40,524 nucleotides of DNA, taken from assembly GCA_032718475.1 (NCBI GenBank), contig JAUCBJ010004152.1, forward strand, positions 1 through 40,524, in the 5' to 3' direction. Shown in pieces: positions 6,606 through 36,229 of this stretch. The first letter of the stretch is position 1. Every line of letters begins with the position of its first letter. This DNA comes from Nemertoderma westbladi. Its lineage: Eukaryota > Animalia > Xenacoelomorpha. Both the position numbers and the translations under genes were made by a program. Under the pieces are notes generated by a model, which searched no databases, was not told where the DNA came from, and saw only the letters and a list, made by a program, of their open reading frames with translations.

Positions 6606-6655
6606 ACATTACTATTACTGTATACTGGTATATAAAAATCATGTATAGCGTATTA

Positions 6656-7261: not shown

Positions 7262-7270
7262 CTCCCCCCA
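7262..7270 (-). promoter_or_regulatory. Polypurine tract of element A
   Basis: Minus strand reads TGGGGGGAG immediately before the LTR start TGTTAGC. Confidence 0.8.
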
Positions 7271-9480: not shown

Positions 9481-9515
9481 CCTCCTCTATTATTTAATTA
9501 TTTTCTTATTTTTAA

Positions 9516-12500
9516 TTAAATAATTATTTTATATTTTGTGCGTGGGAAGGGCGTCTCGCCCTCATTCCCACCCCCCTCAGTCCAAAACTTTGGACGACTA
9601 AAAACTCTCACGTGCCCCTTCTTCCAGTAGGCACTCTCCTGCTGCCCTCCTATACGTCCTCTAACTCTTCGCCACACTCTCTTCGGTGCTACCTTTGCTG
9701 GCCTCCCCCTTCGTGTGTGCGCTGGCATTAGAGCCCTCGACGACCCCCGCTCGTCCCTCGGTATACGCGGTGTCTGCCCGTGCAATGCCCCCTCGCACTG
9801 TGTCCGTCCTGCGTGTGTATGCAACACGCCTCCTTCTACTTTCCCGACTCCCTTATGTTTGCTAATGGGCTTCTCTGCCCCTGGTTTAGTCCTTTCATAT
9901 CCTCTCCCTTTCCAACACTCTCCGGATCTGTGTCCTTTTACCACACATCGATGACATAGTCCGTTTGCGTCTGTGTAGGCTACACGATCTCGTTTGGGCA
10001 ACGCTTGCCAGTACTTGCAACTCCTGGTCTTATGGGTTCCGTCCCGATGTAATTGACATTGGAATCCTGGATTATAGCGTTTCCTGTATAGTCCTTCACG
10101 TATCGCGCTTAGGTTTATATGTACCGATTTAATGTTTCGATTGTCTAGACTCGGCCTACTGGGTATATTGGGATTGTGTTTATTTTTGGTGTTATTTTCT
10201 TCCTGTCCCTGCCACGGTGTGGCCCTACTACCAGCTAACTGTGGACTGGTAGTCCCCTGTATGGCCGCGTGTGGTGGTGACTGTCCGCACGACCTGCTCT
10301 CGTCCAGGGAGTTCGATATTCTTGCTCCTATCGGGGTATATTGTCGATATTGTGATGGGGGAATGTCACCCTGTCCCCCCCCCAGCCGGTATGTTTGGTA
10401 CTGGGGTTGATGTTAATACATTGGGGCCCATACGTCTATCTCCAATAACTCCCCCCTCCCCTGGATATATGTTATGTCCCTGTGTATTATAGTCATGCTG
10501 CTGTACCGATATAGGCCTACCTACCTCTCGCCTACCTACCGGTATGTACTCCGCGACTTCCGGGTTTAATCCCGTCGTTCGCGCTACCCCATCGCCTACT
10601 CTATCTCTCCCAGCATGGCCTATAATAGTATGTGCAGTAAGGCCTACAGTATGTCCTGCAGTCTGCATGTGCCCTTCCGAACCGAAGTTTATTCTTCGCG
10701 AATCTCGAATCTCCCCGCGACTACTGCACTCTCGATCGGCAGCTATATCCCGTCGGGAAGCTTCTCTCCGATCCCCTCTCCTGTTCTCGACTCTGTATTG
10801 GTACGTCTTGTACCCCTCTCTTGGCGTGCGGTGCGTTTCTCCGGGGCGACGGCAATCTCCCGAAGTTCGACCCCACTGGCTCCCTGACTCCATCTCTACT
10901 ATCGACGGTCCGTCATCCGTCCTCGCACTCCTATCGTTCGTGGCGACACCTTTTCTACTATCTCCTCTTCTTCTCTTTTCAGTGCAGTATTCCCGCTCGT
11001 GAGATCTCTCGTCGACCTCCCGGTTAAACTCCACTGTTCTTCTTCTCTCTTCTGATCGGGCTCGACGCTTCGTCTGCCCTCTCGCGACGTCAACCTGCCT
11101 CTCTCTACTCGATCGCACGCCGCTGGGGATACTCGCAATCCCCCTATTACTCTCCGTCGCCGGGTGTTGCGGTTTACCTGATTCGGCCCGCGCATTATCC
11201 GCTGACGGCTGTGGGACACTCTCTGCCCCCCCTCTCTCTCTACTAACTCTCTCGCGGTGGGGTGTCCGTAGCCCCCCCCCCACCCGCCACTTCTAACTTC
11301 ACTATCTCTTACTACACTTCTGCGTCCCTCTTGTGGGGCATTCTCTGCCCCCCCTCTCTCACCACTAATCTTATGTGGTGGGGCGCCGGCAGCCCCCCCC
11401 CCACTCGCCACATCTAACTTCACTATCTCTCACTTCGTCTCTACACCCCTCTCTAGTCGACGCACTGTCTCTACTACGGCTGGGTCTATTCACCCCCGCC
11501 TCTCTCTCTACTACTGCGTGGCCCACCAGGCCCACTTCGGGTTGGCTCAACCCCGCTACCTCCTGCCTACTAACTGCGTGGCCTACCAGGCCGCCGCCTG
11601 CCGGGCTATACACGTCTGACACGCTCATATTAATAGCACCATTCCCAATATTATTTGTTAAATCAATTAAATTATTATTTTCAAAATTTAAATTAATATT
11701 CGAATTATTTGAATTAATGTTATTATTTGAATTTAAATTTAAATTACTACTACCAGGTAAAATATTATTTGCTGCAATAAAGGGATTAGGGTTATCTACT
11801 ACGGTACTATTAATATTAACTATTTCTAACGTACTATTATTACCCCCCCCCCCCCCCCCCCCCGCCCGTACGGCTGGCTACACCAGTTCTGGTTCTCTCG
11901 CCCGGTGCCTGTAGGTGGGGTCTCACTCTCTGACAGTTCCAACCGCACCAGTTCTAGTCGGCGCTGATTCAGTTTGGCTTGATATTGCGCAAGCCTCCCT
12001 AGCACGGCATGCAAATCATCCCGCCTGCACTCACCCTCTATCCCCCACTCTCGCATATTCTGCCCGGCCAACTCTGCCTCTCTCGCAACCATCTCAAGCC
12101 GCCTCGCCGCCTCGCCGGCTCGCTCTCTACTCCCATCTCTCGCTCTCTACACTCCTTGGCTCTCTCTCTACACTCCTCGGCTTGCTCTCTATACTCCCTC
12201 TCCAACTCTCCTAACCTCTCTGAAAATGCGGTTTCCTCTCTCAATTGTCTCTCTAACTCATTCTGCTCTGTCGCAACCATTTCTAATTTATACGCCATGC
12301 GTTCACTCTCTCGCACCCGTCTTTCTTTTACGGAGGATGTAGCAGACTTATCGGTTGCGACGGACTCCCGCCGCCCCTCCGTCCTACTAACTTTCCCCCG
12401 CCTCCCGGAACTTCCTCCGACCGACGAGACCGAATCCTCGGAGTTAACCTCGGATTCGCCCTCCTCAGGTCTCTTCCAACCCACTAATTTTACTCCCCGG

Positions 12501-13132
12501 GCATCGACTAAGTATGGCCCTACGTACACTACGCTAGGTTCCATACCCCCACATTCCCATAGTTCAATCAGTTCGTTGACAACTCCCCTCGCCCTCTCCT
12601 CGGCTAGTTCTCCCTGCCCAGAACGCACTAGGTAATCAAAGTATCTGTTCGACTCACCTAGTCGTCTCCTCAGTCTCACCTCGTCTATCTTCGCCCCTCC
12701 TTTGGCCTCTCTCAGTTGCTCCCGGGTCGCGGCGTAGGCCCGTCGAAGTCGATCAGAAATCCCAACGTCCTCGTCGCCGACCTCTCCTCCATCTCTCTGG
12801 GTCCGACGTCGTACCGACGGCCCCACCGTCGCCGTTCCGGTGGACCGTTCGTCGTCCTCGGCCTGTGGCTGGCCGGCGACATCGGTGCGTCGACCCTCGC
12901 TCCGCGTCGACTCGTCTTCCTCTTCTCCTCCCGACTCGATTTCTCTTTGTAGACGACCCCCCACATCTTGGTTCGCCGGGTCGCTCGTTATCGACGTGGC
13001 GTCAACGTGCGTCGACGTGGTCGGCGTAGCATCGACCGGCGTCGTGGGTTCGTATCGTCTCGCCGTGGCCTCGCGGATCGTTAGATCGTCGTCCGGGGTC
13101 CGCGGCGGTGTCGTTCCTTTCTCTCGACTCAT
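9516..13132 (-). pseudogene. Gag-like polypeptide of element A (~1200 codons, broken by frameshifts at simple-sequence runs)
   Basis: Overlapping minus ORFs 12038-13132, 11826-12092, 11371-11628, 10366-11283 and 9516-10001 can be joined. Coiled-coil N-terminal part. C-terminal CQLH..THKTRSC..R..LCHRCVVKGHRSGEC resembles tandem BEL/Pao Gag knuckles. Confidence 0.7.
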
Positions 13133-13262
13133 CTTCGTCTTTGGTGTCTGGCAGCCACAGTCTGTCTGTTGGTTGGATCCAGTTCTATCACTGTCAGACT
13201 GTCAGGGCAGCTGCTAGGATTCTATCTCTGTCAGGGCAGCTGGGCGGATCTGATTCTATCAC

Positions 13263-13809
13263 TGTGACGGGATCTACGGATCCCGGTTTATCCGTTGGGT
13301 TTTCTATCTACGCGTCCCCGCCGTGTGTGAAAGGTAAAAGAGTTCTGATGTTCGGTTATATGTATAAGGTATAATATAGTTGATATATAGGCTATAGTAT
13401 AGTATGGCACAGTTACCGGTAGATAAGTATGATGGCGGTAGCGGACGGTGATAGAAGTCACCGTTCCACCCTACTGAACTAACTGAGTAAACTGAATGAA
13501 TGATTGCTGTACAGGTAATATGTACTGCACGGGTTTGGCCGTTACAGTACTTAGTCGATGCTGTCCCCCCATTGGCTAATATCCCTGTTGGCACCCTTTG
13601 CCCCCCTCTGAAGTGCTTCCCTTCGCCCTTGCTGTTCTCTCTTGGTTAGGGGTTTGGCCCCTGACCCTTATTGTGTGTGTTTCCTTTGGGGCCTATTGTC
13701 CCCGTTTACTGGGGTGACACGAGGTTGATTGGTAATCAACCTCGTGCTCCCAATATTGCTTTATGGCTCACTCTATGGGTTTGTGTTAGCGGAATTGGAT
13801 AAGCTAACA
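13263..13809 (-). repeat. 5' LTR of element A
   Basis: Direct repeat of 6716-7261. Confidence 0.95.
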
Positions 13810-14157
13810 CTGGCATAGCATTAGCATTCTTAATATATGTACAATAAATATATATATAATGCAGCTGACTTCAATGCAGCATGCCGTTAGTAAGTAGAAC
13901 TGCAGGGACAGGATACGATACGATACGAAGACTGATTTTCGTATTGCAGTATTTTATTCGTAACGAATTTCGTATCGTATCATAAAAATTGACGTCGTAT
14001 CGTATATTACGAATAAATATTTTTCGTATTTTATAGAATTATATTCCCTAAATGCCGTGGATTTTCAAAATTTTATTTTATTCGAATTAACTTTGTAAAG
14101 ATTGCTTTGAGTTCTCATTAGTATTTGTTCTATCATTTGTACGCCTATCGGTCAAGT

Positions 14158-14244
14158 GGTTCAGTAGCTCAGTCGGTAGAGCGTTGGAAATTATATGTGT
14201 AGTAGGTATTGAGTTCGAATCCTAGTAAGTGCGAATTATTTTTT
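14158..14244 (+). ncRNA. tRNA-like Pol III cassette in the 5' LTR
   Basis: A-box/D-arm TAGCTCAGTCGGTAGAGC, B-box GAGTTCGAATCC, followed by T6. Acceptor and anticodon stems do not pair. Confidence 0.6.
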
Positions 14245-14440
14245 GTGCAGAATTTCAACTCATTTAAATTGACCGCTACAAATTAATTGCATTTGTCTGT
14301 ACCAATGAGACTGTAGTTATTTGATTGTAACCAATGTCGTGCAAGTTATACATTAGCTGGACCAATAGCTATCTTTAAAACCTTGTTAGAACCTATAGAA
14401 CAATCGAGAATTTTCTCGATTGATTGCAGCACAAATTTGG

Positions 14441-14583
14441 TATATAAAGGTGCGATTTGTTCATTAGTTATCTCATTACTATACCATAATATATTCTCTC
14501 AGGTATTCAGTTATCTGATATTTGTTTATTCTGTCATTAGTTTTCAGATTACATTGTATTATAATTATATCTTCTGTAATAAA
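14441..14583 (+). promoter_or_regulatory. Putative LTR TATA box (14441-14448), Inr-like TCATT motifs and polyA signal AATAAA (14578-14583)
   Basis: Motifs occur in the U3-R order expected for an LTR. A 10-bp-stem palindrome at 14401-14422 lies just upstream. Confidence 0.5.
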
Positions 14584-16777
14584 GTCAGAATATTCTCTCA
14601 GCTTTTCTATCTGTTTTACTATGATTCACCACGGTGAACCCAGCTAAGGGACAGGATGGCCAGCTAGAGATCGGGCCGCAGCAATGAACGGGAACATCAC
14701 GGGAATGTAGACAAGAGACAACCCGCAATAACATCTTGAGTTATTCGCCCATCGCCTGAAAGGTTAGACAGCGTTCGACGCCTTGCTACCTAAGTATAAG
14801 ACCAAAAGATCAAAAGGTAGAAGTAGTGACACGCTGTGAGCCTAAAATTACATTTAGGGACTGTACTGTCTTGATTCAGGAAAAAACCACAGTAGACCTT
14901 CACATTCCTACGGGGGGGGAGAGCGCAGGCAGAGACACTAGTACGCAGATAGGACGTAGGCACACCGGTACGAAGCATACAAATTGGTAGGGTGCAGCAA
15001 ACTGTACGCCTAACTCTTGCTAAGTACAGGTGCGTGTGCGACTATTTGCAGTACAACGGTGTCCATTGCATTAGAACTTGTAGGCTAGGAGGGTTGTTGT
15101 GTTTTCACCTGAATTGAGATTGTACCGTTCAGGCGGTAGGGCAGTTTACAGCTAGGCGCAAATAAATTGAGGCTATTAGGGATACTAACATCTACCGTGT
15201 CCCCGCCAACGCCCTAATAGGAAGTTACCCAGACTACCTGGGTGACTAAAATTCTAGATAGGACGCCAGGATAGCTATTAGTAACAGTACGCCTACAGTA
15301 GTAAACTAACACATCTCTTCTTAGTATCAGGGACCTGGTACCTAAAATTGCCGAATTCTGGGCGTAGCATTAACCTTATGCCTGAATTTGAGTCCTGGAA
15401 ATACGCAAGAGGGGAAGGAACCTTATCATTCGTGAGTATTGGACCTACAAGTTATAAAATTAGAATATTCGTAAAATGCACACCGTACCCAGTAATTATA
15501 TATGTGAAGGAGCAAAACTGCTTTTGACTGTTTAGAATTGACACACGCGCGTTAGAAATTATTTACACCTCAAAATATATAAAATTAACTTTCGTCCGTA
15601 CTGTGTTTTGCCCGCTAGTTAGACATCTCCAAATCTCTGCCTCTGTACTTAGCTAGCGTCTCTTTGCCCAACCATATAAATCACACCGCGGCAAAGTGTA
15701 CGAGCTTCTTAGTCCGTCAGTGAGTCAGCCTGATTTTAGGATTCGCTGCGCGGGATTTTTGTTTCATCGAAGTTTGTCTGCTCGTAGACTGTTTTCTGCC
15801 TCACCGGTTATAAGAGATCGATACTGCAATATATTCGCTTACTTAGAGTTTACTGTTTTGGTGAGAAGGTCGGATTTATGATTTGATTTACAAACTTTAC
15901 TGTAAGATATTGCAGGTATTGTTACCGTCTCTTCCATATAGTAGGAATAGGCGTATCTCTTCCAATAGTAGGAATGTGTTTTACTGAACTACGGTTCGGT
16001 AGGACTAAAGTTATTTGAAAATTTTGTATTTTGAGGTAAAAATTTGTATTTGATTAGCTAAGTGCTAATTTTTTGAAATAAAATTTGATTTGAACCGCGT
16101 GTAAAATATTTTTGGAATTGAATACCGGTGTTTAAAAAGGGTTTAAATGCCATATTGTACCGGTACAAAATTTTCGTAAAGTAAAACCTAACTCTTTTGT
16201 TTTTTCAGGATTCAGAACTCATTTCTAGACTGTAACGGGAGCAAGACCGTGTTTAGCAAGTTTGGGAGATAGATAACTCAACAACTTTGGTTGGGAAAAT
16301 CGCGCTTCGTCCGCAACGTTAAAAACGGAAAGGTTCACGTCCGGTTTGTATCTGGGAATCTGTTTTTCTGGAGAATTATTGGAGTGGGTGAGTTCGAAAA
16401 GTTGCATAAATAAGTTAGGCATTACCGTATTAGTTAAAATTATTGTGGGTTCCACTGTCTCAAGTATTTATGCATTCCGTATGATTTCTTTGTTCATTGC
16501 TGAATTAGTCCGTATTATTGTATTTAATTTACATTTTGATAACGCATATCGTTATCCGATTTATTTGTTATAAAATTGGCCGCTAGGCTAATTTTATTAT
16601 ATACTTATTCCGTGACATTTATTTGCTGTAAAATTGGCCGTTTAGGCTAATTTTATCCATCTGCTATAAAATCGGCCGGTAGGCTAATTTTATATGACTG
16701 TAATTAGTACCGTTTAGATATAAATACGGTAAACTCGATACTTTGACACTCACTTTACTTGACTTACAACTACCGAA

Positions 16778-19700
16778 ATGAGTGACAAACAAGACTATAC
16801 GAAGAACACACCTACCGACTATGACTCGTGTGACGCGGATAAGTCAGCAGCGGAAGAACAACAGGGGAAGACTCGCGAGCCTACCGAACCTACACCGTGT
16901 GCGTCACCAGTACATCCAACGGGAGTACCGGATGCCGTAGTACGAGGCGACGGCAGGACCGAGGACTTTCTAACTGTTCCGCAACCTAGATACAGGGAAA
17001 TGGAGATGGTAAGTTCAGTAGGAAGCCAGGAGAGCGTAGTTAGAAGCGTCGGCGGTTACATGGCGCATATTACCAGGAGTATTGGAGAAGGCCAACGCAT
17101 ATTAGACGAGTTAACCGCTCCGATGTCTCGGTTCGAGTTCTACACTCTACAGGTGAGAGTACAGAGTAAAGTATATAAGTCCGTAGATAACCTAATTGGT
17201 CTACAAGATCTAGCTAGACAGAGACAGGATATGGACACTCAGCTTAGAATCCTCGAGAAACTAATGATCACTAGAGAGAAACTGATTCAGTTTAAGTCGA
17301 CGATTAGGCAGATACAACAGGAACAAGCGGACCAGTTGTTAGGTGAGTCGGTTTCGGACGAATTATTGCAACCCGAGGAAGAACAGGAACTGTACAGGCT
17401 AGATGGACAATTGAAACACCTGACGGATCACTTACGCATGTGCGGCGAGGACGTCGGAGATTGGGAAACCGTGCCGGAGGCTACGAGGGAAACTTCACTC
17501 GCACAAATCGAACTGGCACCGGGAACACTAAATCAATCACTGGTGAGTATTCGCAGCGAAATTGGCGAGGTGAGTATGGCTACGTCAGAAATTGCTCGAC
17601 AACAGCAGCTCTACAGACAACAACAGGAGATGGAGGAACAAACTGAACTGCTAATGGCACAAGCAGCAGTACAAGAAGAGAAACTACGTGTTGCGAATGT
17701 TGCAAGAATCTCTCATCTGCAAGAACAAGCCGAGTTGGAAGCAGCCGAGATGGAAAGATTAGAGTTGGACATTGCACAACAGGCAGCGGCAGCGGCAGCG
17801 GCAGCGTCCGAGTTAGAGCGAAAAAGGTTAGCTTCAGAAGCGAGAACCGAAATGAAAAAACGGCAAATAAAGGCTCAATCAGCTATACGACAAGCGGAGT
17901 TCGAGGCGCAACAACAACAGACGGAACAACGCGAGAAGGAAGTTAAACTTCATTTCGAACTCGGGAAGAAGGCGAGAGAATTAGCCAACGCGAAGGAAGA
18001 TCTGGATCTACAAGCCCGCGATCGATCGATGAGATCTCGTGACGGACATGATTTGGACCAGTTAAAGGTAAGGCACCGTCAAATTCAGGAACGGAAGAAG
18101 GAAGGAAGCGTAGGAGCACCCGGACGGGAACGACAATTAGTAAAGGACTTGTGTCAACGATTCCCACAGGTAACTCCTATGTTTGCACCAGTTACGATTA
18201 AGGAACCTATTTCGATTGCTGGTAGTAGTAATATTTCTCCTATCCATGGTGCGACGGAACACAGGTTTGTTATTCCGGACAAGTTTACACCGCCAAGAGC
18301 AACGTCGTCGCCTATTCCGAAAGTCAAGGTAAGTAACCCGCCGATTACAGATCGTAGTAGTTTGTTGACCAGACCTGCACTACTGACGACTAAACAGGTG
18401 AGTCCACCTTCGACACCAAAACTCGTTACGCACTACACGTACCCAATGACGTTTAGGCCTACAAAGCCTTTGGATTCAAACGCTGTAGTCCGACCACCGG
18501 TTCAGTTTACATCGCAATCTACGACTTCGAGGAAGACTTGTGAGCCTACCGAACAACGGAGACCAGTGGATACGCGACCGTTCAACCAGTTTACATCGCA
18601 ATCTACGACTTCGAGGAAGACTTGTGAGCCTACCGAACAACGGAGACCAGTGGATACGCGACCGTTCAACCAGTTTACATCGCAATCTACGACTTCGAGG
18701 AAGACTTGTGAGCCTACCGAACAACGGAGACCAGTGGATACGCGACCGTTCAACCAGTTTACATCGCAATCTACGACTTCGAGGAAGACTTGTGAGCCTA
18801 CCGAACAACGGAGAACAGTGGATACGCGACCGGTTCAGTTTACATCGCAATCTACGACTTCGAGGAAGACTTGTGAGCCTACCGAACAACGGAGAACAGT
18901 GGATACGCGACCGTTCAACCAGTTTACATCGCAATCTACGACTTCGAGGAAGACTTGTGAGCCTACCGAACAACGGAGACCAGTGGATACGCGACCGTTC
19001 AACCAATTTACATCGCAATCTACGACTTCGAGGAAGACTTGTGAGCCTACCGAACAACGGAGATCAGTGGACGATGTTCCGAAACGAAACGTGAGAATTC
19101 GTACGACGCAACGGACGCGAGCACGTCGACCACCATATCCAGATGATAGTAGTACTTCGAGCGAATCGGATTACCCGAAACGCGAGGTATTTAGAACAGG
19201 GGCGGCCGATGAATATAAACGCGAGCGTTCAGACAACTCCTTTGTAGACAATCCTCCACAGAATACACCAACACAGAAGGCGTTACAACCAACAGACGCA
19301 ATCAGTACACAACAGTTCGCCGACATTCTGCGACCAGTTGTTAACAAGTTGGCTCAGATCGAGGAACGTCTGGAGGAAGGTTACACCGACAGTTCGAGAA
19401 ATTCCGAATTCGAACACAATAGACACCCGAAGGAACCACAAAGACCGGTACCTTCAAAACATACATCGTATCAGGGAAAAGCGCCAAGAAGGGAGAACAT
19501 CAACCAGGTTACCAACCAAGGACGCGAAACTCTGAACGTTGCCGAGGAGATAGCGAAATTCGCAGCCAGACAAGGATTGCCGGTGCAACAACCACCGAAG
19601 TTTTCCGGTAGCTCAAAACACTGGCACACATTCGTAGACTATATCGAATCCCAGATCGCCGTGTGCGCCTTTACATCACTGGAGAAGTTTAATTACCTGC

Positions 19701-22700
19701 TTCAAACGTTGTCAGGAGAACCTAAACGTTTGGCGGAGACCTTCGTTGGTGTACCGGACGCTTTCGAACTAGCGTACGATCGTTTGACCTCGATCTACGG
19801 AGGCACAGTCAGTATGGCCAGGTCAGTAATAGAGGAACTCTGTAAGGGAGGGGCTATCACTAAACCCGTCGACTTATTAAAACTGGCCGACGAGATAAAG
19901 AACGCTATCACTACTTTAAGATCCATTGGACAACTCGACTACGGGAATACCCCTACAGTCCTATTAAAGATCATAGGACGACTCCACCATCGACTTCGTC
20001 GGGAGTGGAGAAAGATCGAATACCAGCGGGAAGAGCGGGGTGGATTCTTAAAACTAGAGGATGTGTACCTTTTGATATCCAGGGAAGCAGTTGTAGAAAC
20101 ACGATCCAACTACACTGACCAGCACATCGTAGCAGAAGGGATCACCTTGCCATCCTCCAACCGACAAAAACCCCAGACAACATCCACCAAGACGGCCACT
20201 TACGCCACATCGACGGAAACCCGACAATTCTCGGACGGAAGTAGGGTATCTGCGCCCATTGGGACAAAACAGACGAGACAACAACTTAGTACCGACTTCA
20301 GCGGCTGCCAATACTGCGAGCATTTAGGCAAGCGGTATATCGGTCACAAGTTGCGAAGTTGTCGACAGTTTCGCGAGTTGAACTCGGAAGAACGACGGCT
20401 GCAAATACGGCCATTGGACTCTTGTTGGCGGTGTACGCGACACGGACACGTCCGTAAAGATTGCCCAAATACCGACACTTGTCCATCCTGTGGACGCAAC
20501 CACGACGGTCTGCTCCACACAGACAGCCACACGCCGACAAAACGCTTCGCCAGGGAACACCCGGAAGCAGCAGCGAGATGTGATGCGGCCTACAGAAAAC
20601 GAGAATCGAAAACGACTCCAACCTTCGTGACCCATATTGAGGATTGCTTCTCAGAACAATCCGGATCGTCGGACGAAGAATCAGAAGACGACGACGTATA
20701 TTCGGATGGAGATGAACAGCCATCGATCGCGCTTCTGACTACTGACCAACTAAAGGGATTTAGTGTAATTCCGATTAAGGTTACTGGCACAAAGGGGAGT
20801 AAGAGAATCTACGCGATTCTAGATTCAGCCTCATCTCACAGTTACGTGGATGAAAAGATAGCTGACGTCGTGACGGATCTCAGACAAGGTAAGCGCGTCA
20901 GTTATACCGTAAGTAGTATGCACGGACAGCGTGCAATACCAGTGACACGAGTCAAGTTGAACTTAGACTCTCTTCTTCCGAAATCGCAACACAGCGAGAG
21001 GGAGAGGTCTTTGTTACCCTTTAAAGATCTAACCTTTGCGGCCACGAAGGACTTTAGTAACCTACTAGGTCCAGTGCCGGAACAATCTCTAGAGGACCGT
21101 AAGTATTTCAGACACCTTGGTGTACCCGAATGTCCTGTCAATTATAGATCGGTAGCCATGCTGATCGGGACAGACCAATTCAACCTACATCAGGTGTGGG
21201 AAACCAGACCATCGGCAGTTGTAGCGGGAAACGCATACGCCTGCAGAACGCCGATAGGGTGGTATACTCGAGCGCCTGTGCGCACACTAGACGTAAGTGA
21301 CGAGGAAGACGATGTACAAAGTACATGTAGTTTATTAACTACAAATTCAATTCATTCCTTCTCACACGACGTGAACCATACTACACTACAGTCGACAAAA
21401 CGTGACAGATGTGTGACTAGTATGATAAGTCACAAGGAGCAGCTAATTCACCAGGTGCAGAAATCGATACAACATTGGCCTCCGTTATACGACAACAAGT
21501 CTAACACCATCCCTAAGGACGCGGAAATCAAGAAACCAAAAAAGGGGAAGGCAAAGAAAAAGACAACGGCGGCAAAACTCAAGAAAAAACCGAAGGCGAA
21601 ATGGAAAGATATAACTTCAAAGGTCAAGAGAGGAAGACTTGCGAGCCTTTCTACACCAGACATATCGCCAGACGGTCAACCAGACACGTTACTAGACGGT
21701 CAATCAGACATTCTACCAGACATTAGTAACGCATTGACAAACAGTAAAGCCGCAGTTTCTCTGTTGGAGCGGCCTTCTATTGACAAACAACCAGATACGT
21801 TACCAGACGTATCGCCAGACACATTACTAGACAGTCGACTAGACACTAGTAACGTACTGACAAATAGTGAAGCCGCAGTTTCCCTATTGGAGCGGCCTTG
21901 TATTGACAAACTACCAATTTTGACACACTTGAGCAACCATAAGCACGGTGAAACCTCATGTATTACAGATGTGGGTAGTACCTACGCTAATGTAAATACA
22001 GGTGTTACTCTGCGCTCAAGAGACATACCGAACTTGCAACCTACGGTGAGACCTGGGATTAATGTCGGCAGAAAAATAAGTTTACCGAAACCTGCTGACC
22101 CCATAGAGTTCAAACCACCATTAACGATCGACTTACAAAGTACCGACAATCAAGGTAAGAAGACGAAGAAGGACAAATTACTTGTAGACCCGGACGGATC
22201 AACAGTCAACAAGGGAATACTTACCGGCGGACCCGTGGGCCCTTCTAGTAAATCAAAACCTTCCAAAATCTCCATTGACTTACCTGATGACGTCACAAAT
22301 ACTCACGTCGACCGGATTGTAAACTTAACAGACTCTTGGTCAAACGCTTGCCGAAAGTTAGCGTGGATTGTACGTTTTGTACAATACGTTAAAGGCAAAC
22401 GTGACTTTACACGTCGACTTACATTGGCTGAGATTGACAGGTGTGAAATTAAATTAATTCGCCATTACCAACTGCGATATTTCGCACGCGAATTCACATC
22501 TATAAATCAAGGCCTACCAATCAAGTCGTCACCGATACTGAGTTGGAGTCCGATTATTTATAATGGCTTAATTTGTCATAAATCTCGGCTTCAAAACATT
22601 GACTTTAACACAAACTTTAGATACCCAATAATAATACCGCAACACCACGAACTACAACGTGCAATGATACTGGACGCACATTTACATCTGAAACACGCTG

Positions 22701-23815
22701 GAAGACACCACTGTCTTTCCTACTTACGTACAAGATTTGTATTGATTAGACCCAGTAAAGCGTTAAGTTCAGTGACACGTACGTGTATTATTTGTAAAAA
22801 GGTACATTCTAGAATAGGTACCCAAGAAATGAGTGAATTACCACAAGCACGACTTCAAGCATTCAGACCACCTTTTACAGAGACTGGAATTGATTGCTTT
22901 GGTCCCATACATACGAAACGTGGACGTATACTAGTAAAACGCTGGGGACTGATTTTCACATGTATGTCCAGTAGGGCAGTTCACATTGAACGTGTGATGG
23001 ATCTTTCCACCAACGCGTTTATACTAGCACTGCGGCGATTTATCGCTAGACGCGGACTAGTAAAATGCTTGTACTCAGACCAAGGGACAAACTTTGTTGG
23101 TGCTCGGAATGAGATTGCTAGAGCCTTTAAGAAATTAGATCATGATCAAATCTCGAACGAACTACAACCTCACAAGATTGTTTGGAAGTTTAATCCTCCA
23201 GATAGTCCATGGAGAGGCGGAGTCTGGGAGAGATTGATTAGATCTATAAAGACGGCAATGGCAAAAGTCATTCCAGTAAACCACATATTGACAGACGACC
23301 AACTGACAACATTGTTTGTTGAAATCGAGGCAATACTAAATACTAGACCAATAGTATTAGTACCCGATGACAAACAATCTCAATTTGCTTTAACACCGGC
23401 ACACCTGCTAATGCAGGCACCGACCACTTTGACGCCGATTTCTATTCCAATAGAAAGCGATAGCTACGGTAGAAAAGCGTGGAAAATCACGCAACTACTG
23501 GCTAACAAATTCTGGGAAATATGGCAAAACCATTATTTGCCCTCTATTTCTGCCAGAACAAACTGGTACAATAACACCCGCGCATTAAAGCCGGGAGATC
23601 ACGTGCTGTTAGCAGAAGTGAATCTAAAAAGACGCTTCTGGATAACAGGTGTAATTTTAGCCACACATCCATCTATGGATGGAGTGACAAGAACTGTGAC
23701 GGTACGGACAATTGACGGTCGTACAGTAGACAGACCGACTCAACGTCTCGTACTTCTTGAAGAGACTCGTAACGAGTCTGGAGACTACAAATCTCCAACT
23801 AATATTAGTAAATAA
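16778..23815 (+). CDS. BEL/Pao Gag-protease-integrase polyprotein (2345 aa) with no RT/RNase H
   Basis: Gag capsid-like PKFSG..W..F..EKFNYLLQTLSGEP, three Cys/His knuckles, aspartic protease AILDSAS, integrase HHCC (H..HAG..CIIC), DDE core (IDCFGP, SDQGTNF, WERLI) and BEL-type C-terminus (FWEIWQNHYL..W.TGVI..HPSMDGVTRTV). Confidence 0.93.
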   Translation: MSDKQDYTKNTPTDYDSCDADKSAAEEQQGKTREPTEPTPCASPVHPTGVPDAVVRGDGRTEDFLTVPQPRYREMEMVSSVGSQESVVRSVGGYMAHITRSIGEGQRILDELTAPMSRFEFYTLQVRVQSKVYKSVDNLIGLQDLARQRQDMDTQLRILEKLMITREKLIQFKSTIRQIQQEQADQLLGESVSDELLQPEEEQELYRLDGQLKHLTDHLRMCGEDVGDWETVPEATRETSLAQIELAPGTLNQSLVSIRSEIGEVSMATSEIARQQQLYRQQQEMEEQTELLMAQAAVQEEKLRVANVARISHLQEQAELEAAEMERLELDIAQQAAAAAAAASELERKRLASEARTEMKKRQIKAQSAIRQAEFEAQQQQTEQREKEVKLHFELGKKARELANAKEDLDLQARDRSMRSRDGHDLDQLKVRHRQIQERKKEGSVGAPGRERQLVKDLCQRFPQVTPMFAPVTIKEPISIAGSSNISPIHGATEHRFVIPDKFTPPRATSSPIPKVKVSNPPITDRSSLLTRPALLTTKQVSPPSTPKLVTHYTYPMTFRPTKPLDSNAVVRPPVQFTSQSTTSRKTCEPTEQRRPVDTRPFNQFTSQSTTSRKTCEPTEQRRPVDTRPFNQFTSQSTTSRKTCEPTEQRRPVDTRPFNQFTSQSTTSRKTCEPTEQRRTVDTRPVQFTSQSTTSRKTCEPTEQRRTVDTRPFNQFTSQSTTSRKTCEPTEQRRPVDTRPFNQFTSQSTTSRKTCEPTEQRRSVDDVPKRNVRIRTTQRTRARRPPYPDDSSTSSESDYPKREVFRTGAADEYKRERSDNSFVDNPPQNTPTQKALQPTDAISTQQFADILRPVVNKLAQIEERLEEGYTDSSRNSEFEHNRHPKEPQRPVPSKHTSYQGKAPRRENINQVTNQGRETLNVAEEIAKFAARQGLPVQQPPKFSGSSKHWHTFVDYIESQIAVCAFTSLEKFNYLLQTLSGEPKRLAETFVGVPDAFELAYDRLTSIYGGTVSMARSVIEELCKGGAITKPVDLLKLADEIKNAITTLRSIGQLDYGNTPTVLLKIIGRLHHRLRREWRKIEYQREERGGFLKLEDVYLLISREAVVETRSNYTDQHIVAEGITLPSSNRQKPQTTSTKTATYATSTETRQFSDGSRVSAPIGTKQTRQQLSTDFSGCQYCEHLGKRYIGHKLRSCRQFRELNSEERRLQIRPLDSCWRCTRHGHVRKDCPNTDTCPSCGRNHDGLLHTDSHTPTKRFAREHPEAAARCDAAYRKRESKTTPTFVTHIEDCFSEQSGSSDEESEDDDVYSDGDEQPSIALLTTDQLKGFSVIPIKVTGTKGSKRIYAILDSASSHSYVDEKIADVVTDLRQGKRVSYTVSSMHGQRAIPVTRVKLNLDSLLPKSQHSERERSLLPFKDLTFAATKDFSNLLGPVPEQSLEDRKYFRHLGVPECPVNYRSVAMLIGTDQFNLHQVWETRPSAVVAGNAYACRTPIGWYTRAPVRTLDVSDEEDDVQSTCSLLTTNSIHSFSHDVNHTTLQSTKRDRCVTSMISHKEQLIHQVQKSIQHWPPLYDNKSNTIPKDAEIKKPKKGKAKKKTTAAKLKKKPKAKWKDITSKVKRGRLASLSTPDISPDGQPDTLLDGQSDILPDISNALTNSKAAVSLLERPSIDKQPDTLPDVSPDTLLDSRLDTSNVLTNSEAAVSLLERPCIDKLPILTHLSNHKHGETSCITDVGSTYANVNTGVTLRSRDIPNLQPTVRPGINVGRKISLPKPADPIEFKPPLTIDLQSTDNQGKKTKKDKLLVDPDGSTVNKGILTGGPVGPSSKSKPSKISIDLPDDVTNTHVDRIVNLTDSWSNACRKLAWIVRFVQYVKGKRDFTRRLTLAEIDRCEIKLIRHYQLRYFAREFTSINQGLPIKSSPILSWSPIIYNGLICHKSRLQNIDFNTNFRYPIIIPQHHELQRAMILDAHLHLKHAGRHHCLSYLRTRFVLIRPSKALSSVTRTCIICKKVHSRIGTQEMSELPQARLQAFRPPFTETGIDCFGPIHTKRGRILVKRWGLIFTCMSSRAVHIERVMDLSTNAFILALRRFIARRGLVKCLYSDQGTNFVGARNEIARAFKKLDHDQISNELQPHKIVWKFNPPDSPWRGGVWERLIRSIKTAMAKVIPVNHILTDDQLTTLFVEIEAILNTRPIVLVPDDKQSQFALTPAHLLMQAPTTLTPISIPIESDSYGRKAWKITQLLANKFWEIWQNHYLPSISARTNWYNNTRALKPGDHVLLAEVNLKRRFWITGVILATHPSMDGVTRTVTVRTIDGRTVDRPTQRLVLLEETRNESGDYKSPTNISK
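18503..19071 (+). repeat. 84-bp (28-aa) in-frame tandem repeat x7 in gag
   Basis: QFTSQSTTSRKTCEPTEQRRPVDTRPFN repeated. One unit is 81 bp. Confidence 0.97.
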
Positions 23816-24477
23816 TTAGGAGTTTACAAATAGATTTCCACGTACCTGTACACTGTAGTAAGGACAGCGGTAGAATTCCATTGTCTTTATATGTGAACAT
23901 TGAGGGTCCCTTATGTGTCACATAGGAGCGGGATTTGTAGGTATAAGAAATGGAATTCTACTTGGAACTCACAATATTGAGACATTTTCGAAATTTTAGA
24001 CAATCCATTTGGATTTGAAAATTTTTAAAATTTTCTCCAGTAAATAGATTTCAGGGTACAGTCGGGTGGAACTTAAAATTAGAGAAACAAGAGAGGAAGA
24101 CTTGCGAGCCTTTCTTAAAATTGTAATTAAATTTTACACGGTCTTGTTTCAATAAGTTACGTCAATAAATAGACTCCCCTATATTTATTACTAATTCTTG
24201 ACTGCTTATTTTCTGATAATAGTTTGGGATCAAAAAGTGAGTATTTTAGACTCACAGCCAGTTTAGCCCAAATTCGTTTTTTATTTCGGCAAAAAAAAAA
24301 TTTTAGATAAGAAGCAGCGTGTCATTAAAGAAACCTTAGATCTTAGGCTATGGGTAGGAGGTTAGAGCGTTGTCGAAGCCCAAAAGGCAGACGAAACTCT
24401 CACGTCTCCTCACAACTAACTACAAACTCTGTTGTATTCCCTCTAGTAGTAATGATTATGTAACTACACCTCTAATT

Positions 24478-26183
24478 ATGGAGAAAGGGATACAAGGAGA
24501 GCCGAGATGGGGATATGATATCCAAGAGGAAGCGGCAGCTTCATTCGAACGATTTGGAGCAAAAGACTACACTATATTTGGTATAAAGGAATTATCAGAA
24601 AGTACAGCGAAGCTCGCAAAGACAGCAATGCCTTTACTCGAGCAGGATTTAGCATATTTCGAGACGTGTATCTTCGCTGTGCGGGATCTCTTATCGAAAG
24701 ACCATCTATGTTTACATTGTTACCCTATGAAGGAGAACGTATCGTGGAGATTATGGATGAATCACGGCAGACGCGCGCGCCTATCGGTCACCTTGGTGAT
24801 GATTTCGAAGTAACTACTACGATCACTGACGATCCTTTAGAAGAACTTCTTGAGATAGAAAGGAACCTCCCGAAGAAATCTCAGACGGAGATTCGACAAC
24901 TTGAAGCAACAGATGCTATAGTTTGCATACAACCTTCAGAAACCTACCAACCCATAGATCCAGATGATTACGATTATAGTGTGGGAGGAAGCGCTCGACC
25001 GATTGGAGATCTTATATACGAACGAGTGTGGTACCCTGCCAATACGATGTGTAGTAAATGTGGCGTCGCTGGACATCATATGACAAAGTGCAGTGGAAAG
25101 CACATTACTACGACTCAGCTAATCTGTGGATGGTGTGGGGATCAAGGGTCTCATACCTTTTATACTTGCTGGAGATTTATGGCTCAATGTACTTACTGCA
25201 ATATAAAGGGCATCGAGCATCTGAATGCCAACTAAAAGACATACCCTATGAACACGAATCTGTAAAACTCGTGAGAAAATTATTTGATGAGTGGGAAGAT
25301 TTAGCCGACGAACATGTATCGGCACAAAGAAGACGGTTTCCGATGAGGGCGCATCTTGGATTTTGGGCGGTAAATCCCCAGACGATGATGTCGGAAGGAT
25401 ATATCTCCGCTATGCCCCAATATGACGAACTTATTGAGGTTGTCGATATTTTACCCCACGACAGTGGATTCCGAGTAGTGCGCGAGTATCTATTACAAAT
25501 TCACCCGGATAACAAAAACACGTGGAATTTTCAGAAAGTCGTTAATCGCATTACGTATGTATGGTGAATTCGATCGTTTCCGAACTGAAAAGCGGAACAA
25601 AGGAGCTTGGTTAACCGTCGCATGGGCGTACCGAGCCGCGTTTTACCACAAACGTATACGAGCGAGCGTATTCAAGGAAGAGGAGGTCCTAGAGGCGACA
25701 AATATACCAGCCACTCCGGTTGCGCCGTCTGCACGTCACCCTCGGGAGGACGGACAGGGTAGGATCATACGGGTCCAGAAAGTGGGCCAACAATTAAAGA
25801 AAATTATTAATATAGAAGAACGCAAGGGAGCTGAGCCGACCATTCGAGTTACTCGGGATACGGTATCGCTTCCTAGAGAACCAACAGGAGGATCGGGACA
25901 CACCCCAGCTGATGAGAAGGGGGCACAAGCTACTCTTGGGTCTGCGTCGTCCGCTTCTCGCGCGTTCCCAGACGTTCTACCAACTGTAGTGACAACTGAT
26001 CGGTCACGAGGAGTCGGTCGAGGTTTTGGGATGCCAAATAGACGAATTTGCGAGGAAATAGTCGCACCGTCTCTCAACGTCCAAACGAAACCAGTGACTC
26101 GCCCCATTAGTCCCATATCGCGAGCAAAGTCACCTGTGCGCAGTTTTCGAGGACGCGGCAGGGCTCGATCCACTAAGCGATAA
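24478..26183 (+). pseudogene. Accessory ORF2 of element B: triple CCHC zinc-knuckle protein, three frame breaks
   Basis: Overlapping ORFs 24370-24813, 24666-25235, 25058-25567 and 25557-26183. Knuckles CSKCGVAGHHMTKC and CGWCGDQGSHTFYTC, plus CTYCNIKG/HRASEC completed across the frameshift at ~25210. RG-rich basic tail. Confidence 0.75.
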
Positions 26184-26771
26184 AAGGGAGGGCAAGGGTG
26201 GACGGAAGACTCGTGAGCCTTTCTTATGATTTTGTGATTTATTTGAATTTATATTTATATTTGTGTTTATTCCGAACTTATGCAATTTATATTGTTCCGA
26301 ATACTATGCAATTTATATCTTATAAGTAGTATTTGTATTTACAGTGAAATAGAAATTTTCATTTATTTGTATTTGTAATTGTTTGAATTTATGCAATATT
26401 GAAATGCAATAGATTTATATTGGTGAATTTAATTTAGATTTATATTGTACTTACTTAGTAAAGCCTTAAATACGTAAAGTTTGAATTTGTAATTAATTTT
26501 GTATCGAATCATTACGTAGAAAGGAAGTATTGTTTGAAACTTAATTGTAAATATGTAAGTACGCCCTAAGTATTCTATAGTTTGATTGATTATTGGTGAA
26601 AACCGTATATTTTATGCACGATAATATCCTGTTTTCATGGAGCGGTATAGAATTATATTCCCTAAATGCCGTGGATTTTCAAAATTTTATTTTATTCGAA
26701 TTAACTTTGTAAAGATTGCTTTGAGTTCTCATTAGTATTTGTTCTATCATTTGTACGCCTATCGGTCAAGT

Positions 26772-26858
26772 GGTTCAGTAGCTCAGTCGGTAGAGCGTTG
26801 GAAATTATATGTGTAGTAGGTATTGAGTTCGAATCCTAGTAAGTGCGAATTATTTTTT
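26772..26858 (+). ncRNA. tRNA-like Pol III cassette in the 3' LTR
   Basis: Same sequence as 14158-14244. Confidence 0.6.
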
Positions 26859-26941
26859 GTGCAGAATTTCAACTCATTTAAATTGACCGCTACAAATTAA
26901 TTGCATTTGTCTGTACCAATGAGACTGTAGTTATTTGATTG

Positions 26942-27138
26942 AACGCCGACACAAGGGTGGGACAGTAGAGTCAGGAACTCATACCGGTATCATAAACAAT
27001 TTCAAAATCAGTTTGGTTATTTTATATTATTTAATTCCCTTGTATGGTTTAAATTTCCCGCCTTTTGCTCATTTGATAATATAAATTTACTATAGTTTTT
27101 GGTCCTACTGTAAAAAAAAAAAAAAAAAAAAAAAAAAC
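26942..27138 (+). mobile_element. Short polyA-tailed retroposed insertion in the 3' LTR
   Basis: Absent from the 5' LTR. Ends in ~26 A. Flanked by an 11-bp TSD TTATTTGATTG (26931-26941 / 27139-27149). Confidence 0.92.
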
Positions 27139-30037
27139 TTATTTGATTGTAACCAATGTCGTGCAAGTTATACATTAGCTGGACCAATAGCTATCTTTAA
27201 AACCTTGTTAGAACCTATAGAACAATCGAGAATTTTCTCGATTGATTGCAGCACAAATTTGGTATATAAAGGTGCGATTTGTTCATTAGTTATCTCATTA
27301 CTATACCATAATATATTCTCTCAGGTATTCAGTTATCTGATATTTGTTTATTCTGTCATTAGTTTTCAGATTACATTGTATTATAATTATATCTTCTGTA
27401 ATAAAGTCAGAATATTCTCTCAGCTTTTCTATCTGTTTTACTATGATTCACCACGGTGAACCCAGCTAAGGGACAGGATGGCCAGCTAGAGATCGGGCCG
27501 CAGCAATGAACGGGAACATCACGGGAATGTAGACAAGAGACAACCCGCAATAACATCTTGAGTTATTCGCCCATCGCCTGAAAGGTTAGACAGCGTTCGA
27601 CGCCTTGCTACCTAAGTATAAGACCAAAAGATCAAAAGGTAGAAGTAGTGACACGCTGTGAGCCTAAAATTACATCTTATGGACTGTACTGTCTTGATTC
27701 AGGAAAAAACCACAGTAGACCTTCACATTCCTACGGGGGGGGAGAGCGCAGGCAGAGACACTAGTACGCAGATAGGACGTAGGCACACCGGTACGAAGCA
27801 TACAAATTGGTAGGGTGCAGCAAACTGTACGCCTAACTCTTGCTAAGTACAGGTGCGTGTGCGACTATTTGCAGTACAACGGTGTCCATTGCATTAGAAC
27901 TTGTAGGCTAGGAGGGTTGTTGTGTTTTCACCTGAATTGAGATTGTACCGTTCAGGCGGTAGGGCAGTTTACAGCTAGGCGCAAATAAATTGAGGCTATT
28001 AGGGATACTAACATCTACCGTGTCCCCGCCAACGCCCTAATAGGAAGTTACCCAGACTACCTGGGTGACTAAAATTCTAGATAGGACGCCAGGATAGCTA
28101 TTAGTAACAGTACGCCTACAGTAGTAAACTAACACATCTCTTCTTAGTATCAGGGACCTGGTACCTAAAATTGCCGAATTCTGGGCGTAGCATTAACCTT
28201 ATGCCTGAATTTGAGTCCTGGAAATACGCAAGAGGGGAAGGAACCTTATCATTCGTGAGTATTGGACCTACAAGTTATAAAATTAGAATATTCGTAAAAT
28301 GCACACCGTACCTAGTAGTTATATATGTGAAGGAGCAAAACTGCTTTTGACTGTTTAGAATTGACACACGCGCGTTAGAAATTATTTACACCTCAAAATA
28401 TATAAAATTAACTTTCGTCCGTACTGTGTTTTGCCCGCTAGTTAGACATCTCCAAATCTCTGCCTCTGTACTTAGCTAGCGTCTCTTTGCCCAACCATAT
28501 AAATCACACCGCGGCAAAGTGTACGAGCTTCTTAGTCCGTCAGTGAGTCAGCCTGATTTTAGGATTCGCTGCGCGGGATTTTTGTTTCATCGAAGTTTGT
28601 CTGCTCGTAGACTGTTTTCTGCCTCACCGGTTATAAGAGATCGATACTGCAATATATTCGCTTACTTAGAGTTTACTGTTTTGGTGAGAAGGTCGGATTT
28701 ATGATTTGATTTACAAACTTTACTGTAAGATATTGCAGGTATTGTTACCGTCTCTTCCATATAGTAGGAATAGGCGTATCTCTTCCAATATATTTCGTAT
28801 GTTATTATTTTGTGTGAATATTAATGTTTTTAACAGTCAAACCAGAGATCTCATCACTTATTTGTTTACATATTTTTTTCTCAAAATTGGTGTATAAATT
28901 AGGTTACAGCTTACAGTTTTACTATGCCAATAAAATGTGTAAGACAGGAGGATTGTTAACACATTTTAATTAACTGTTTTAGAATAATGATAAAAAGACC
29001 ACTGAAATATAATCTAATATCAGTTATAATAAATTAATTAAATTAACTAATCGCGCCTACAAGGCCTTTGATGATATGATAAGGCATTATAGTGGGATAA
29101 TAAAATAAATAAAACATTATAGCTTTATTCTAGCATTAGTTTAACTTCGAAATTGAAGTTTCGAATTTTATTTCATAGGCCCCCCTACATCAAATTCAAA
29201 ATTTTCCGTAATGGCATATGGCATGGTATTATGGTAACGCCTATTATTGGGCCGCGTTGCATAACGTCCTTATGGATGTTGTAGACAGTGGAGAATTGAT
29301 ACAATATTGCCCGCTGTAGTAGCAAGCCAGGGACTGGTAGCAAGCATACTGGTCTGGAACATTTAAATAAAATACTTGCCAATTATATCGATAATTTATA
29401 TGATTTTCTAAGTGTAATAACACAAAAAATGCAATACATGTTTTTTACCAACTCTTAGACAAAATACGATGCGAAAAAATCTATCTTTAGGTATCCTATC
29501 TTTGATTTTTCGTATCGTATCGTATTTTCACAAAATTGCATTCGTATCGTATCGAATCATTAAAAATTGGTTCGTATCGTATCGTATTTCCGTATCGTAT
29601 CGTATCGTATCCTGTCCCTGAGTAGACGTAGTAATATCAAAAGATATTGTAATGTTATGACCGAGACTGACACAAAGTTACTTCAGGAAATAAACTATCT
29701 TTTTGGAGTTTTTATTGCCCTGGCAAATAAAGAAAACAACGAGCGTTTTATATCAATTAATTTCTGCGTCTAGGCCTCTGCCAGACATCCGCCTCGGACC
29801 GAGGAATTGTGGAGCAATTGGGCGATATCAGGGTCAGAGGTGCCTAGCCTATTTATTACGGAATAAGTAAATAAAACACAGATAAATTATAAGACTTCCA
29901 CCATGAACAATTAGTAAAAATTATTTTTTTATATGCTTTTTTGATAACCATAATAATTTACTAAAATAATTTTATGAAATAATATCTATATAACATAAAA
30001 ACCTACCACCAAACCAGAAAAAGTTAACAATTCAGCA

Positions 30038-31578: not shown

Positions 31579-32076
31579 TTAAAATTTGTGTAAATAAATT
31601 TATTGCTCACAATAATGTTATATAAAAATTCATTTAGTGAATGAGTTAAAAGTTCACACTTCCTATGTAAATATACAAAGTGTGGGAGTTTCACAAAATG
31701 AAAACACTTAAAGTGTAGAGAGTGGTGTCTCTACACTAAAGTGGTTTCATTTTGTTATTACTGTCCCAATCCAGATGTTTATTATATAGCGGCTGTTACA
31801 TAGTGGATGCTTTGTAGGTTCAATGGTAAGTAGCGATGTAATGACAAACAAGCATTAACCCAGTAAGTGTGCATTAGATACCTGCTGTTACATCTCGACT
31901 TTGTCCACTTATCGCGGTTTTGTTAAAGTACGCGAACAAAAGTCCCATCCCGTGCTAACGGCACGAAGTCAATTTATATTTTACCGTCACATGATTTAGG
32001 CTACTTACTTACTAGCCTATTCTGCATTATTACCCACATGGGGGGGGGGGGGGGAACTCGACGCAAAACCCGCCCT

Positions 32077-33522: not shown

Positions 33523-33556
33523 CTTAAAGTGAAAATAAATTCGATTTTGTAGTAAA

Positions 33557-36211: not shown

Positions 36212-36229
36212 ATGTTATATGCTGTATTT

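What the first reader, a model, noticed from the sequence alone, without database searches (positions are those of the whole stretch)
16778..23815. Intact 7-kb Gag-PR-IN ORF with RT and RNase H cleanly absent in a recently inserted element
Seen: after the protease region (ends ~21290, RTPIGW) comes ~330 aa of Lys/Ser/Asp-rich linker with an internal duplication (~21660-21910). The pre-integrase segment (SWSNACRKLAWIVRF, ~22335) follows. There is no YxDD, RxVFD/MPFG or FxDAS motif. The ORF has no stops, the integrase DDE is intact and only a handful of LTR differences were noticed. Known: BEL/Pao order is Gag-PR-RT-RH-IN. Inference: a stable semi-autonomous parasite that builds particles and integrates itself but borrows RT in trans, rather than a one-off deletion.
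Basis: partly seen in the sequence, partly recalled or inferred. Interest (0 to 1): 0.8.

Follow-up and report, generated by a model that had tools for sequence, protein, structure and literature searches.

The report
Internally deleted BEL/Pao retrotransposon copy
A young jumping-gene copy lacks its reverse transcriptase and RNase H, likely through one in-frame deletion from an abundant family whose other copies probably still carry them, and nothing here shows that the shortened form has spread.

Summary
ORF 16778-23815 (2,345 aa) runs Gag-protease-integrase with no RT or RNase H, inside a young 14.8-kb BEL/Pao element (LTRs differ at 3 of 1,936 bases; 5-bp target duplication). The 'linker' does not replace RT. 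Contigs from four public runs leave the window's sequence at 21457 or join it at 21456, which marks a deletion junction. To its right lies the family's own, unusually long RNase H-integrase spacer. The family is abundant (depth about 1,800-2,900 times single-copy flank, rough) and under purifying selection, and copies that continue past the junction look common. In one probable RNA run, the only contig laid just left of the junction runs on past it. No listed contig bridges the junction, but most were not shown, so a minor RT-less subfamily is not excluded (about 25%). Similar RT-less BEL ORFs occur in 7 of 217 homologs; mouse IAP 1Δ1 is a precedent for spread. In passing: there is no tRNA primer site; the primer position pairs with the element's own LTR, as in a second element nearby (candidate Tf1-like self-priming).

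The parts
14027..14031 (+). left target-site duplication (TATTT)
   Evidence: same 5 bases at 28791-28795
14032..15967 (+). 5' LTR, 1,936 bases, non-canonical TA...TA ends; TATA-like 14441, AATAAA 14578 and 15161
14890..14911 (+). LTR segment complementary to the primer position (11-bp helix 14901-14911, plus a 7-bp helix upstream of it)
15968..15986 (+). primer-site position: no TGG within about 60 bases; pairs with the element's own LTR (candidate self-priming site)
16778..23815 (+). single open Gag-protease-integrase ORF, 2,345 aa, no RT or RNase H
18412..19155 (+). 84-base tandem repeat, about 7 copies, in frame in the N-terminal Gag region
19601..20530 (+). Gag core (DUF1759, aa 942-1079) and three Cys/His knuckles starting at aa 1177, 1216, 1235
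20765..21262 (+). aspartic protease domain; catalytic Asp at aa 1349 (20822) in an atypical D-S-A-S motif
21263..21457 (+). normal post-protease segment that precedes RT in homologs
   Evidence: profile columns to about 83
21456..21457 (+). deletion junction (RT and RNase H missing here); 2-base overlap between the leaving and joining ends; reading frame kept
   Evidence: table 7 (places and counts), table 8 record 26
21458..22333 (+). expanded RNase H-integrase spacer, 292 aa, Lys/Leu/Asp/Ser/Pro/Thr-rich, with an 88-base duplication; present at family-wide depth
22334..23812 (+). integrase region: pre-integrase segment, HHCC zinc finger, DDE core, DUF5641
24358..26183 (+). extra 3' reading region in the env position, broken into four overlapping pieces in three frames; one piece has Cys/His knuckle-like motifs; no homolog found for that piece
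26646..28790 (+). 3' LTR, preceded by a weak purine-rich tract
26931..27138 (+). 208-base insertion in the 3' LTR (poly(A) tail, about 11-base target duplication), later than the element's own insertion
   Evidence: loose ends at 26941 in X3 and X4
28791..28795 (+). right target-site duplication (TATTT)

Best explanation
This is a young BEL/Pao LTR retrotransposon copy whose single open gene encodes Gag, protease and integrase but no reverse transcriptase or RNase H, likely lost in one in-frame deletion at 21456-21457 from an abundant family whose other copies probably keep them. Shown: the missing domains, the junction where other copies leave and join, the family's abundance, and the young LTR pair. 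Inferred: the missing part is roughly 540 residues (profile columns about 80 to 620); it was lost by a template switch during reverse transcription or by microhomology repair at a 2-base overlap; the sequence that other copies carry beyond the junction is RT and RNase H (inferred from its place in the polyprotein, not identified here). The copy keeps its LTRs, primer-site pairing and purine tract, so it could be copied by a sibling's RT if co-packaged, but it is most likely a single or rare derivative.
For:: loose ends at one place in all four runs (behind 21457: 7, 5, 4, 1 contigs; before 21456: 5 in X1, 1 in X4); X4 record 26 is 519 bases, matches 21283-21457 with 8 differences and runs on unlike for the rest; X4 bins 21354-21455 have exactly that contig's depth (887.7), so nothing else was laid there. 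Only 9-12 contigs per run show the all-depth letter at 21410 and 7-10 at 21415 in X1-X3, so 4-7 leaving contigs are probably a large share (inference); the left side aligns to the pre-RT segment; a W-P pair sits 6 residues after the junction, and in 68 homolog segments W-P follows the RNase H-end G-P-x-F/W-L motif by 4-7 (median 6); median internal depth 1,794 (X1) and 2,871 (X3) times single-copy flank; 26 of 32 listed Gag/PR/IN differences are synonymous against at most 35% expected (P 1e-7). Letters not seen, or nearly not seen, in any laid contig (20357, 21410, 21704, 22838, 24042, 25236, 28313) number about the 7.4 expected from LTR divergence, 3 of 4 in the ORF non-synonymous: the copy has been drifting since insertion.
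Against: The deletion is in frame (one chance in three) and removes RT and RNase H almost exactly, leaving a 7-kb ORF open. Clean RT/RNase H loss recurs: 7 of 217 homologs with both flanks against 10 partial losses, and 7 of 15 listed members of one cluster share a single junction while differing by 3-5 residues. Contigs drop rare variants and only 32 of 4,618 pieces were shown, so absence of bridging contigs is not proof. The tool warns that summed contig depth is no copy number. X4 is taken as RNA only because it holds a spliced host contig (record 23).
Confidence: 0.66

Rival explanations
1. An amplified RT-less subfamily, like mouse IAP 1Δ1: the deletion arose once, and the open Gag-PR-IN protein helps its own RNA into particles in cis while full-length siblings supply RT and RNase H.
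For: In-frame, near-exact loss with all cis signals kept; recurring architecture in 7 of 217 homologs and one shared junction in 7 of 15 listed members of the P0031 cluster, with 2 members continuing towards RT; IAP 1Δ1 precedent (PMC6466679, passage).
Against: No bridging piece among 32 shown; X4 holds only the continuing contig left of the junction. The letter at 28472, shared by both LTRs, is absent from all laid contigs of X1, X3 and X4, a weak sign that this copy's haplotype is rare. The P0031 members could be alleles of one locus. Two of the 7 RT-less homologs are NCBI gene models that may skip RT as a false intron.
Confidence: 0.25
2. Assembly artefact: a chimeric join inside a high-copy repeat removed RT and RNase H.
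For: About a thousand near-identical copies (rough); no listed contig bridges the junction.
Against: Frame kept, both LTRs, target duplication, a private LTR insertion and private substitutions all fit one real locus.
Confidence: 0.05
3. One reading: the whole family is RT-less, a new linker stands in place of RT, and an unrelated helper family supplies RT.
For: The spacer has family-wide depth in X1-X3; no close RT-bearing relative was found in protein collections (best single-stretch identity 43%).
Against: Contigs about 95% identical up to 21457 continue into other sequence, and others join at 21456; the spacer starts at the position that follows RNase H in homologs.
Confidence: 0.04

Closest known systems
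BEL/Pao LTR retrotransposons (Belpaoviridae, Semotivirus; ICTV profile PMC8742986, whole text read)
   Same: LTRs, one continuous gag-pol ORF, Gag-PR-(RT-RH)-IN order, DUF1759 and DUF5641, three Gag knuckles, 5-bp target duplication; all best protein hits have BEL/Pao domain sets.
   Different: RT and RNase H absent in this copy; LTR 1.94 kb and element 14.8 kb against 0.2-1.2 kb and 4.2-10 kb in the profile; no tRNA-type primer site; TA...TA ends; RNase H-integrase spacer 292 aa against a median of 49 (n=63); extra 3' reading region with no homolog found.
Mouse IAP 1Δ1 (PMC6466679, passage)
   Same: Internal deletion leaving one open gag-pol fusion ORF; non-autonomous; needs proteins from full-length relatives in trans.
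   Different: 1Δ1 loses part of gag as well and is proven to be amplified and to act in cis; here Gag and protease are whole and amplification is not shown. That 1Δ1 keeps integrase is recalled, not read.
Other RT/RNase H-less BEL ORFs in public protein sets (P0031 cluster, P0064, P0074, P0152, P0156, P0180, P0198)
   Same: Protease-side segment joined in frame to the segment after RNase H; P0031 breaks at profile columns 76 and 611, close to this copy (about 80 and 620).
   Different: Unrelated families (35-40% integrase identity); short normal spacers; unnamed or gene-model records, no published description found.
Tf1/Tf2 and Tf1/sushi self-priming elements (PMC7175516 and PMC6317226, passages)
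   Same: 11 bases right after the 5' LTR pair perfectly with the element's own LTR; no tRNA site.
   Different: [quoted passage not shown]

Membership tests
BEL/Pao (Belpaoviridae) | Paired LTRs with target-site duplication | tested here: met
   14032-15967 / 26646-28790, TATTT on both sides
BEL/Pao (Belpaoviridae) | BEL-type Gag (DUF1759, triple knuckle) and integrase C-terminus (DUF5641) | tested here: met
BEL/Pao (Belpaoviridae) | Pol order PR-RT-RH-IN with RT and RNase H present | tested here: not met
   PR precedes IN but RT and RNase H are absent from this copy; it is filed as a deletion derivative, not as an autonomous member
BEL/Pao (Belpaoviridae) | 18-nt primer site complementary to a host tRNA 3' end | tested here: not met
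   No TGG within about 60 bases after the 5' LTR; pairing with own LTR instead
BEL/Pao (Belpaoviridae) | Placement in a BEL/Pao lineage by RT phylogeny | not testable with these tools
   No RT in the window; no named reference lineages held; no tree was built
Amplified non-autonomous subfamily (IAP 1Δ1 type) | Open fusion ORF across an internal deletion | tested here: met
Amplified non-autonomous subfamily (IAP 1Δ1 type) | Several insertions with the same junction and different flanks | tested here: inconclusive
   No genome held; 0 of 32 shown pieces bridge the junction, 4,586 not shown; no match in metagenome or viral contigs
Amplified non-autonomous subfamily (IAP 1Δ1 type) | Full-length helper of the same family | tested here: inconclusive
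   Near-identical contigs continue past the junction in four runs; their RT content is inferred from position
Amplified non-autonomous subfamily (IAP 1Δ1 type) | Purifying selection among the deleted copies themselves | not testable with these tools
   The synonymous excess pools all copies of the family
Tf1-type self-priming | Primer position abuts the LTR and pairs with own LTR RNA | tested here: met
   11 bp at offset 0; 4 of 5,000 shuffles; -23.5 kcal/mol, 0 of 150 shuffled probes but 4 of 150 internal probes as strong
Tf1-type self-priming | Partner is the 5' end of the transcript and is cleaved off as primer | not testable with these tools
   Only contigs were available; they cannot show a start

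The most novel reading that the evidence does not exclude
A spreading RT-less BEL/Pao subfamily that makes its own Gag, protease and integrase, primes reverse transcription with its own RNA instead of a tRNA, and borrows both RT and RNase H from full-length siblings; clean RT/RNase H loss would be a recurrent strategy across BEL/Pao families.
Probability: 0.15. Interest if true: 0.6.

Novelty: new member of a known kind. Interest (0 to 1): 0.27.

Why it matters
As a single deleted copy it is ordinary. If the junction proves multi-copy, it would be an invertebrate counterpart of IAP 1Δ1 and a clean natural test of which retrotransposon proteins act in cis (Gag, integrase) and which in trans (RT, RNase H). 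The side finding may matter more: the ICTV profile gives BEL/Pao as tRNA-primed, yet two different elements in this window put self-complementary sequence at the primer position with the same helix layout. My ten paper searches found no description of BEL/Pao self-priming or of an amplified RT-less BEL family, but most subscription papers and Repbase are outside the library.

Tried and rejected
Whole-genome copy count: no genome held. Protein search with the spacer region among shorter proteins: none of 7,998 candidates. Related loci in metagenome contigs (593 pattern matches, none confirmed), viral contigs (3 matches, none confirmed) and an exact 25-base pattern left of the junction (0): nothing. 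No RNA holder listed by the run search; X5 is only a guess and shallow. Highly diverged RT in the spacer: rejected (only 5 aromatic W/F/Y residues in 292). Splicing as the origin of the junction: the window has a donor-like CAG/GT just before and a CAG just after the break, but no 6-base-shorter form is listed table 4, and donor-like words are frequent in this ORF (8 in 7,038 bases); not supported. tRNA gene or Rfam family in the LTR: none, though a tRNA-like stretch near 14150-14230 is visible by eye. Extra 3' ORF piece 24519-25232: no homolog among 133 candidates; the atlas did not answer. Earlier scan notes on this genome or sequence: none. No structure or complex prediction was run. Paper searches gave no amplified RT-less BEL family and no BEL self-priming; Saito 2008 (PMC2413153) was not held; no supplements were opened, and those of PMC3118150 (all BEL/Pao sequences found there) could hold RT-less families.

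Full report
The element. The ORF lies in a 14,759-base LTR element, 14032-28790. The LTRs (14032-15967 and 26646-28790) differ by 3 mismatches in 1,936 bases, one 1-base indel and a 208-base poly(A)-tailed insertion in the 3' LTR; the 5-base target duplication TATTT fixes the ends as TA...TA. The ORF 16778-23815 is open for 2,345 aa with DUF1759, knuckles, a protease, an HHCC finger, DDE and DUF5641. All 120 listed hits carry DUF5641 and BEL/Pao-type domain sets; best single-stretch identities are 43% or less, so no close relative is in the protein collections.

RT and RNase H are absent. Pfam finds neither. A profile of the protease-end-to-integrase segment from 83 of the 120 homologs (those with a 750-850 aa span) matches the window only at columns 5-83 (weakly) and 662-845, in six frames without filters. 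In 200 of 217 homologs that have both flanks the core is complete; 10 have part of it, 7 lack it (47 of 264 hits lacked a flank and were not counted).

The 'linker' is two joined things. Contigs of public runs of the same organism code were laid on 21150-22650. In all four runs contigs leave the window's sequence behind 21457 (7, 5, 4, 1 contigs in X1-X4; X1 and X2 are one sample), and contigs join it before 21456 (5 in X1, 1 in X4). The two ends overlap by 2 bases. Left of this point the protein aligns to the segment that precedes RT in homologs. Six residues to its right is a W-P pair; in 68 homolog segments W-P follows the G-P-x-F/W-L motif at the end of RNase H by 4-7 residues (naming that motif as the RNase H end is my knowledge, supported by its place 588-625 residues after the protease end). 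From the junction to the pre-integrase motif is 292 aa, against a median of 49 in 63 homologs. The spacer has depth like the rest of the element in X1-X3, so the expansion belongs to the family, not to the deleted copy. So RT and RNase H were cut out, about 540 residues by profile columns, not replaced. What the leaving contigs encode was not identified; RT is inferred from position.

The family. Summed contig depth over the internal region is 1,794 (X1) and 2,871 (X3) times the median of four single-copy flank bins. The tool warns that this is no copy number, and overlapping contigs inflate it, so I read it only as 'order of a thousand'. Among the best-supported differences (40 of 572 rows, 40 of 85), 26 of 32 in Gag, protease and integrase are synonymous against at most 35% expected (P 1e-7), and 11 of 22 in the spacer (P 0.11). 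This shows a constrained family, but pools all copies.

Is the deleted form spread? Not shown. Against: in X4, which holds a spliced host contig (skip of 689 with GT-AG ends on the minus strand) and so is probably RNA, the bins 21354-21455 equal the depth of one contig, which matches to 21457 and runs on for 344 unlike bases. In X1-X3 the leaving contigs (4-7) are of the same order as all contigs showing the majority letter at 21410-21415 (7-12). None of 32 shown pieces bridges the junction. The copy has about seven letters unseen or nearly unseen in the runs, as expected from its LTR divergence (7.4), 3 of 4 in the ORF non-synonymous; one more (28472) is shared by both LTRs yet absent from X1, X3 and X4. 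For: the loss is in frame and near exact; 4,586 pieces were not shown and contigs drop rare forms; 7 of 217 homologs show the same architecture, and in the P0031 cluster 7 of 15 listed members (27 in all) share one junction, 2 continue towards RT and 6 do not cover the place. Two of the seven are NCBI gene models and may be false introns; five are ENA or Logan records. I put a private or rare derivative at 0.66 and an amplified subfamily at 0.25.

Mechanism. Established for LTR elements (my knowledge; replication outline in PMC8742986, whole text): RNA is packaged in Gag particles, RT makes DNA, integrase inserts it. Inferred here: a template switch or microhomology repair joined the two points. 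If the loss happened during the reverse transcription that made this copy, a sibling's or parent's RT did the work. The copy could still make Gag, protease and integrase, although its protease motif is atypical (1 of 91 homologs has Ala at that place), and could move again only with RT and RNase H in trans, as IAP 1Δ1 does (PMC6466679, passage).

Primer site. There is no TGG after the 5' LTR. The first 11 bases (15968-15978) are the perfect complement of 14901-14911 (4 of 5,000 shuffles; 13 of 10,662 internal 11-mers do as well), with a further 7-bp helix (-23.5 kcal/mol; 0 of 150 shuffled probes, 4 of 150 internal probes). A second LTR element (6716-13809, minus strand, degenerate Gag-like pieces only, no DNA similarity listed) shows the same layout, 7 bp, a 4-base loop, then 12 bp, with different letters (-27.1; 0 of 300). 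Tf1 primes itself with 11 bases this way (PMC7175516, passage); self-priming is reported for Tf1/sushi, Tcn1 and TAR groups (PMC6317226, passages), while the ICTV profile gives BEL/Pao as tRNA-primed. The transcription start is unmapped, and a TATA/AATAAA pair at 14441/14578 would put the partner in U5, which fits the Tf1 scheme poorly. I found the pairing before reading earlier scan notes, which report the same in other genomes; those are unchecked AI notes, not support.

Other papers seen: PMC3118150, PMC3601003, PMC3286476 (passages), none describing an amplified RT-less BEL family; all others as search listings only.

Verdict. Real observation, ordinary best explanation: an internally deleted copy of an abundant BEL/Pao family. 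New member of a known kind; interest 0.27, carried mostly by the open subfamily question and the primer-site pairing.

Noticed in passing
window 14890-14911 with 15968-15986: No tRNA primer site; the primer position pairs with the element's own LTR (11 bp + 7 bp), a candidate for Tf1-like self-priming in BEL/Pao.
   Followed up: partly
window 6716-13809 (minus strand): Second young LTR element: 547-base LTRs 99.8% alike, TG...CA ends, CTGGC duplication, only broken Gag-like frames with BEL-type knuckles and internal tandem repeats; same primer-site pairing layout with different letters.
   Followed up: partly
window 14032-15967: LTR is unusually long (1.94 kb) with TA...TA ends and a tRNA-like stretch near 14150-14230 that ARAGORN and Rfam do not call.
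   Followed up: partly
window 24358-26183: Extra reading region after integrase, in four overlapping pieces, one with Cys/His knuckle-like motifs; family-wide depth; other copies differ by small indels here; no homolog found.
   Followed up: partly
window 26931-27138: Poly(A)-tailed, SINE-like insertion with an 11-base target duplication in the 3' LTR only.
   Followed up: partly
window 21655-22279: Spacer length varies among copies: joints that go back 48 or 135 bases or skip 69, 118 or 129.
   Followed up: no
window 13903-29620: The element sits inside a short inverted-repeat element whose ends are visible at 13903 and 29620.
   Followed up: no
proteins P0031, P0064, P0074, P0152, P0156, P0180, P0198: Seven unrelated BEL ORFs with clean RT/RNase H loss; the P0031 cluster shares one junction in 7 of 15 listed members.
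   Followed up: partly
window 30038-31642 and 33047-33523 (minus strand): Host fibrinogen-domain gene with a 689-base intron spliced in run X4, and a ClpB C-terminal exon.
   Followed up: no
window 881-1564, 6245-6674, 36200-40524: THAP-like fragment, a 10-base tandem array, and 12- and 43-base satellite arrays.
   Followed up: no
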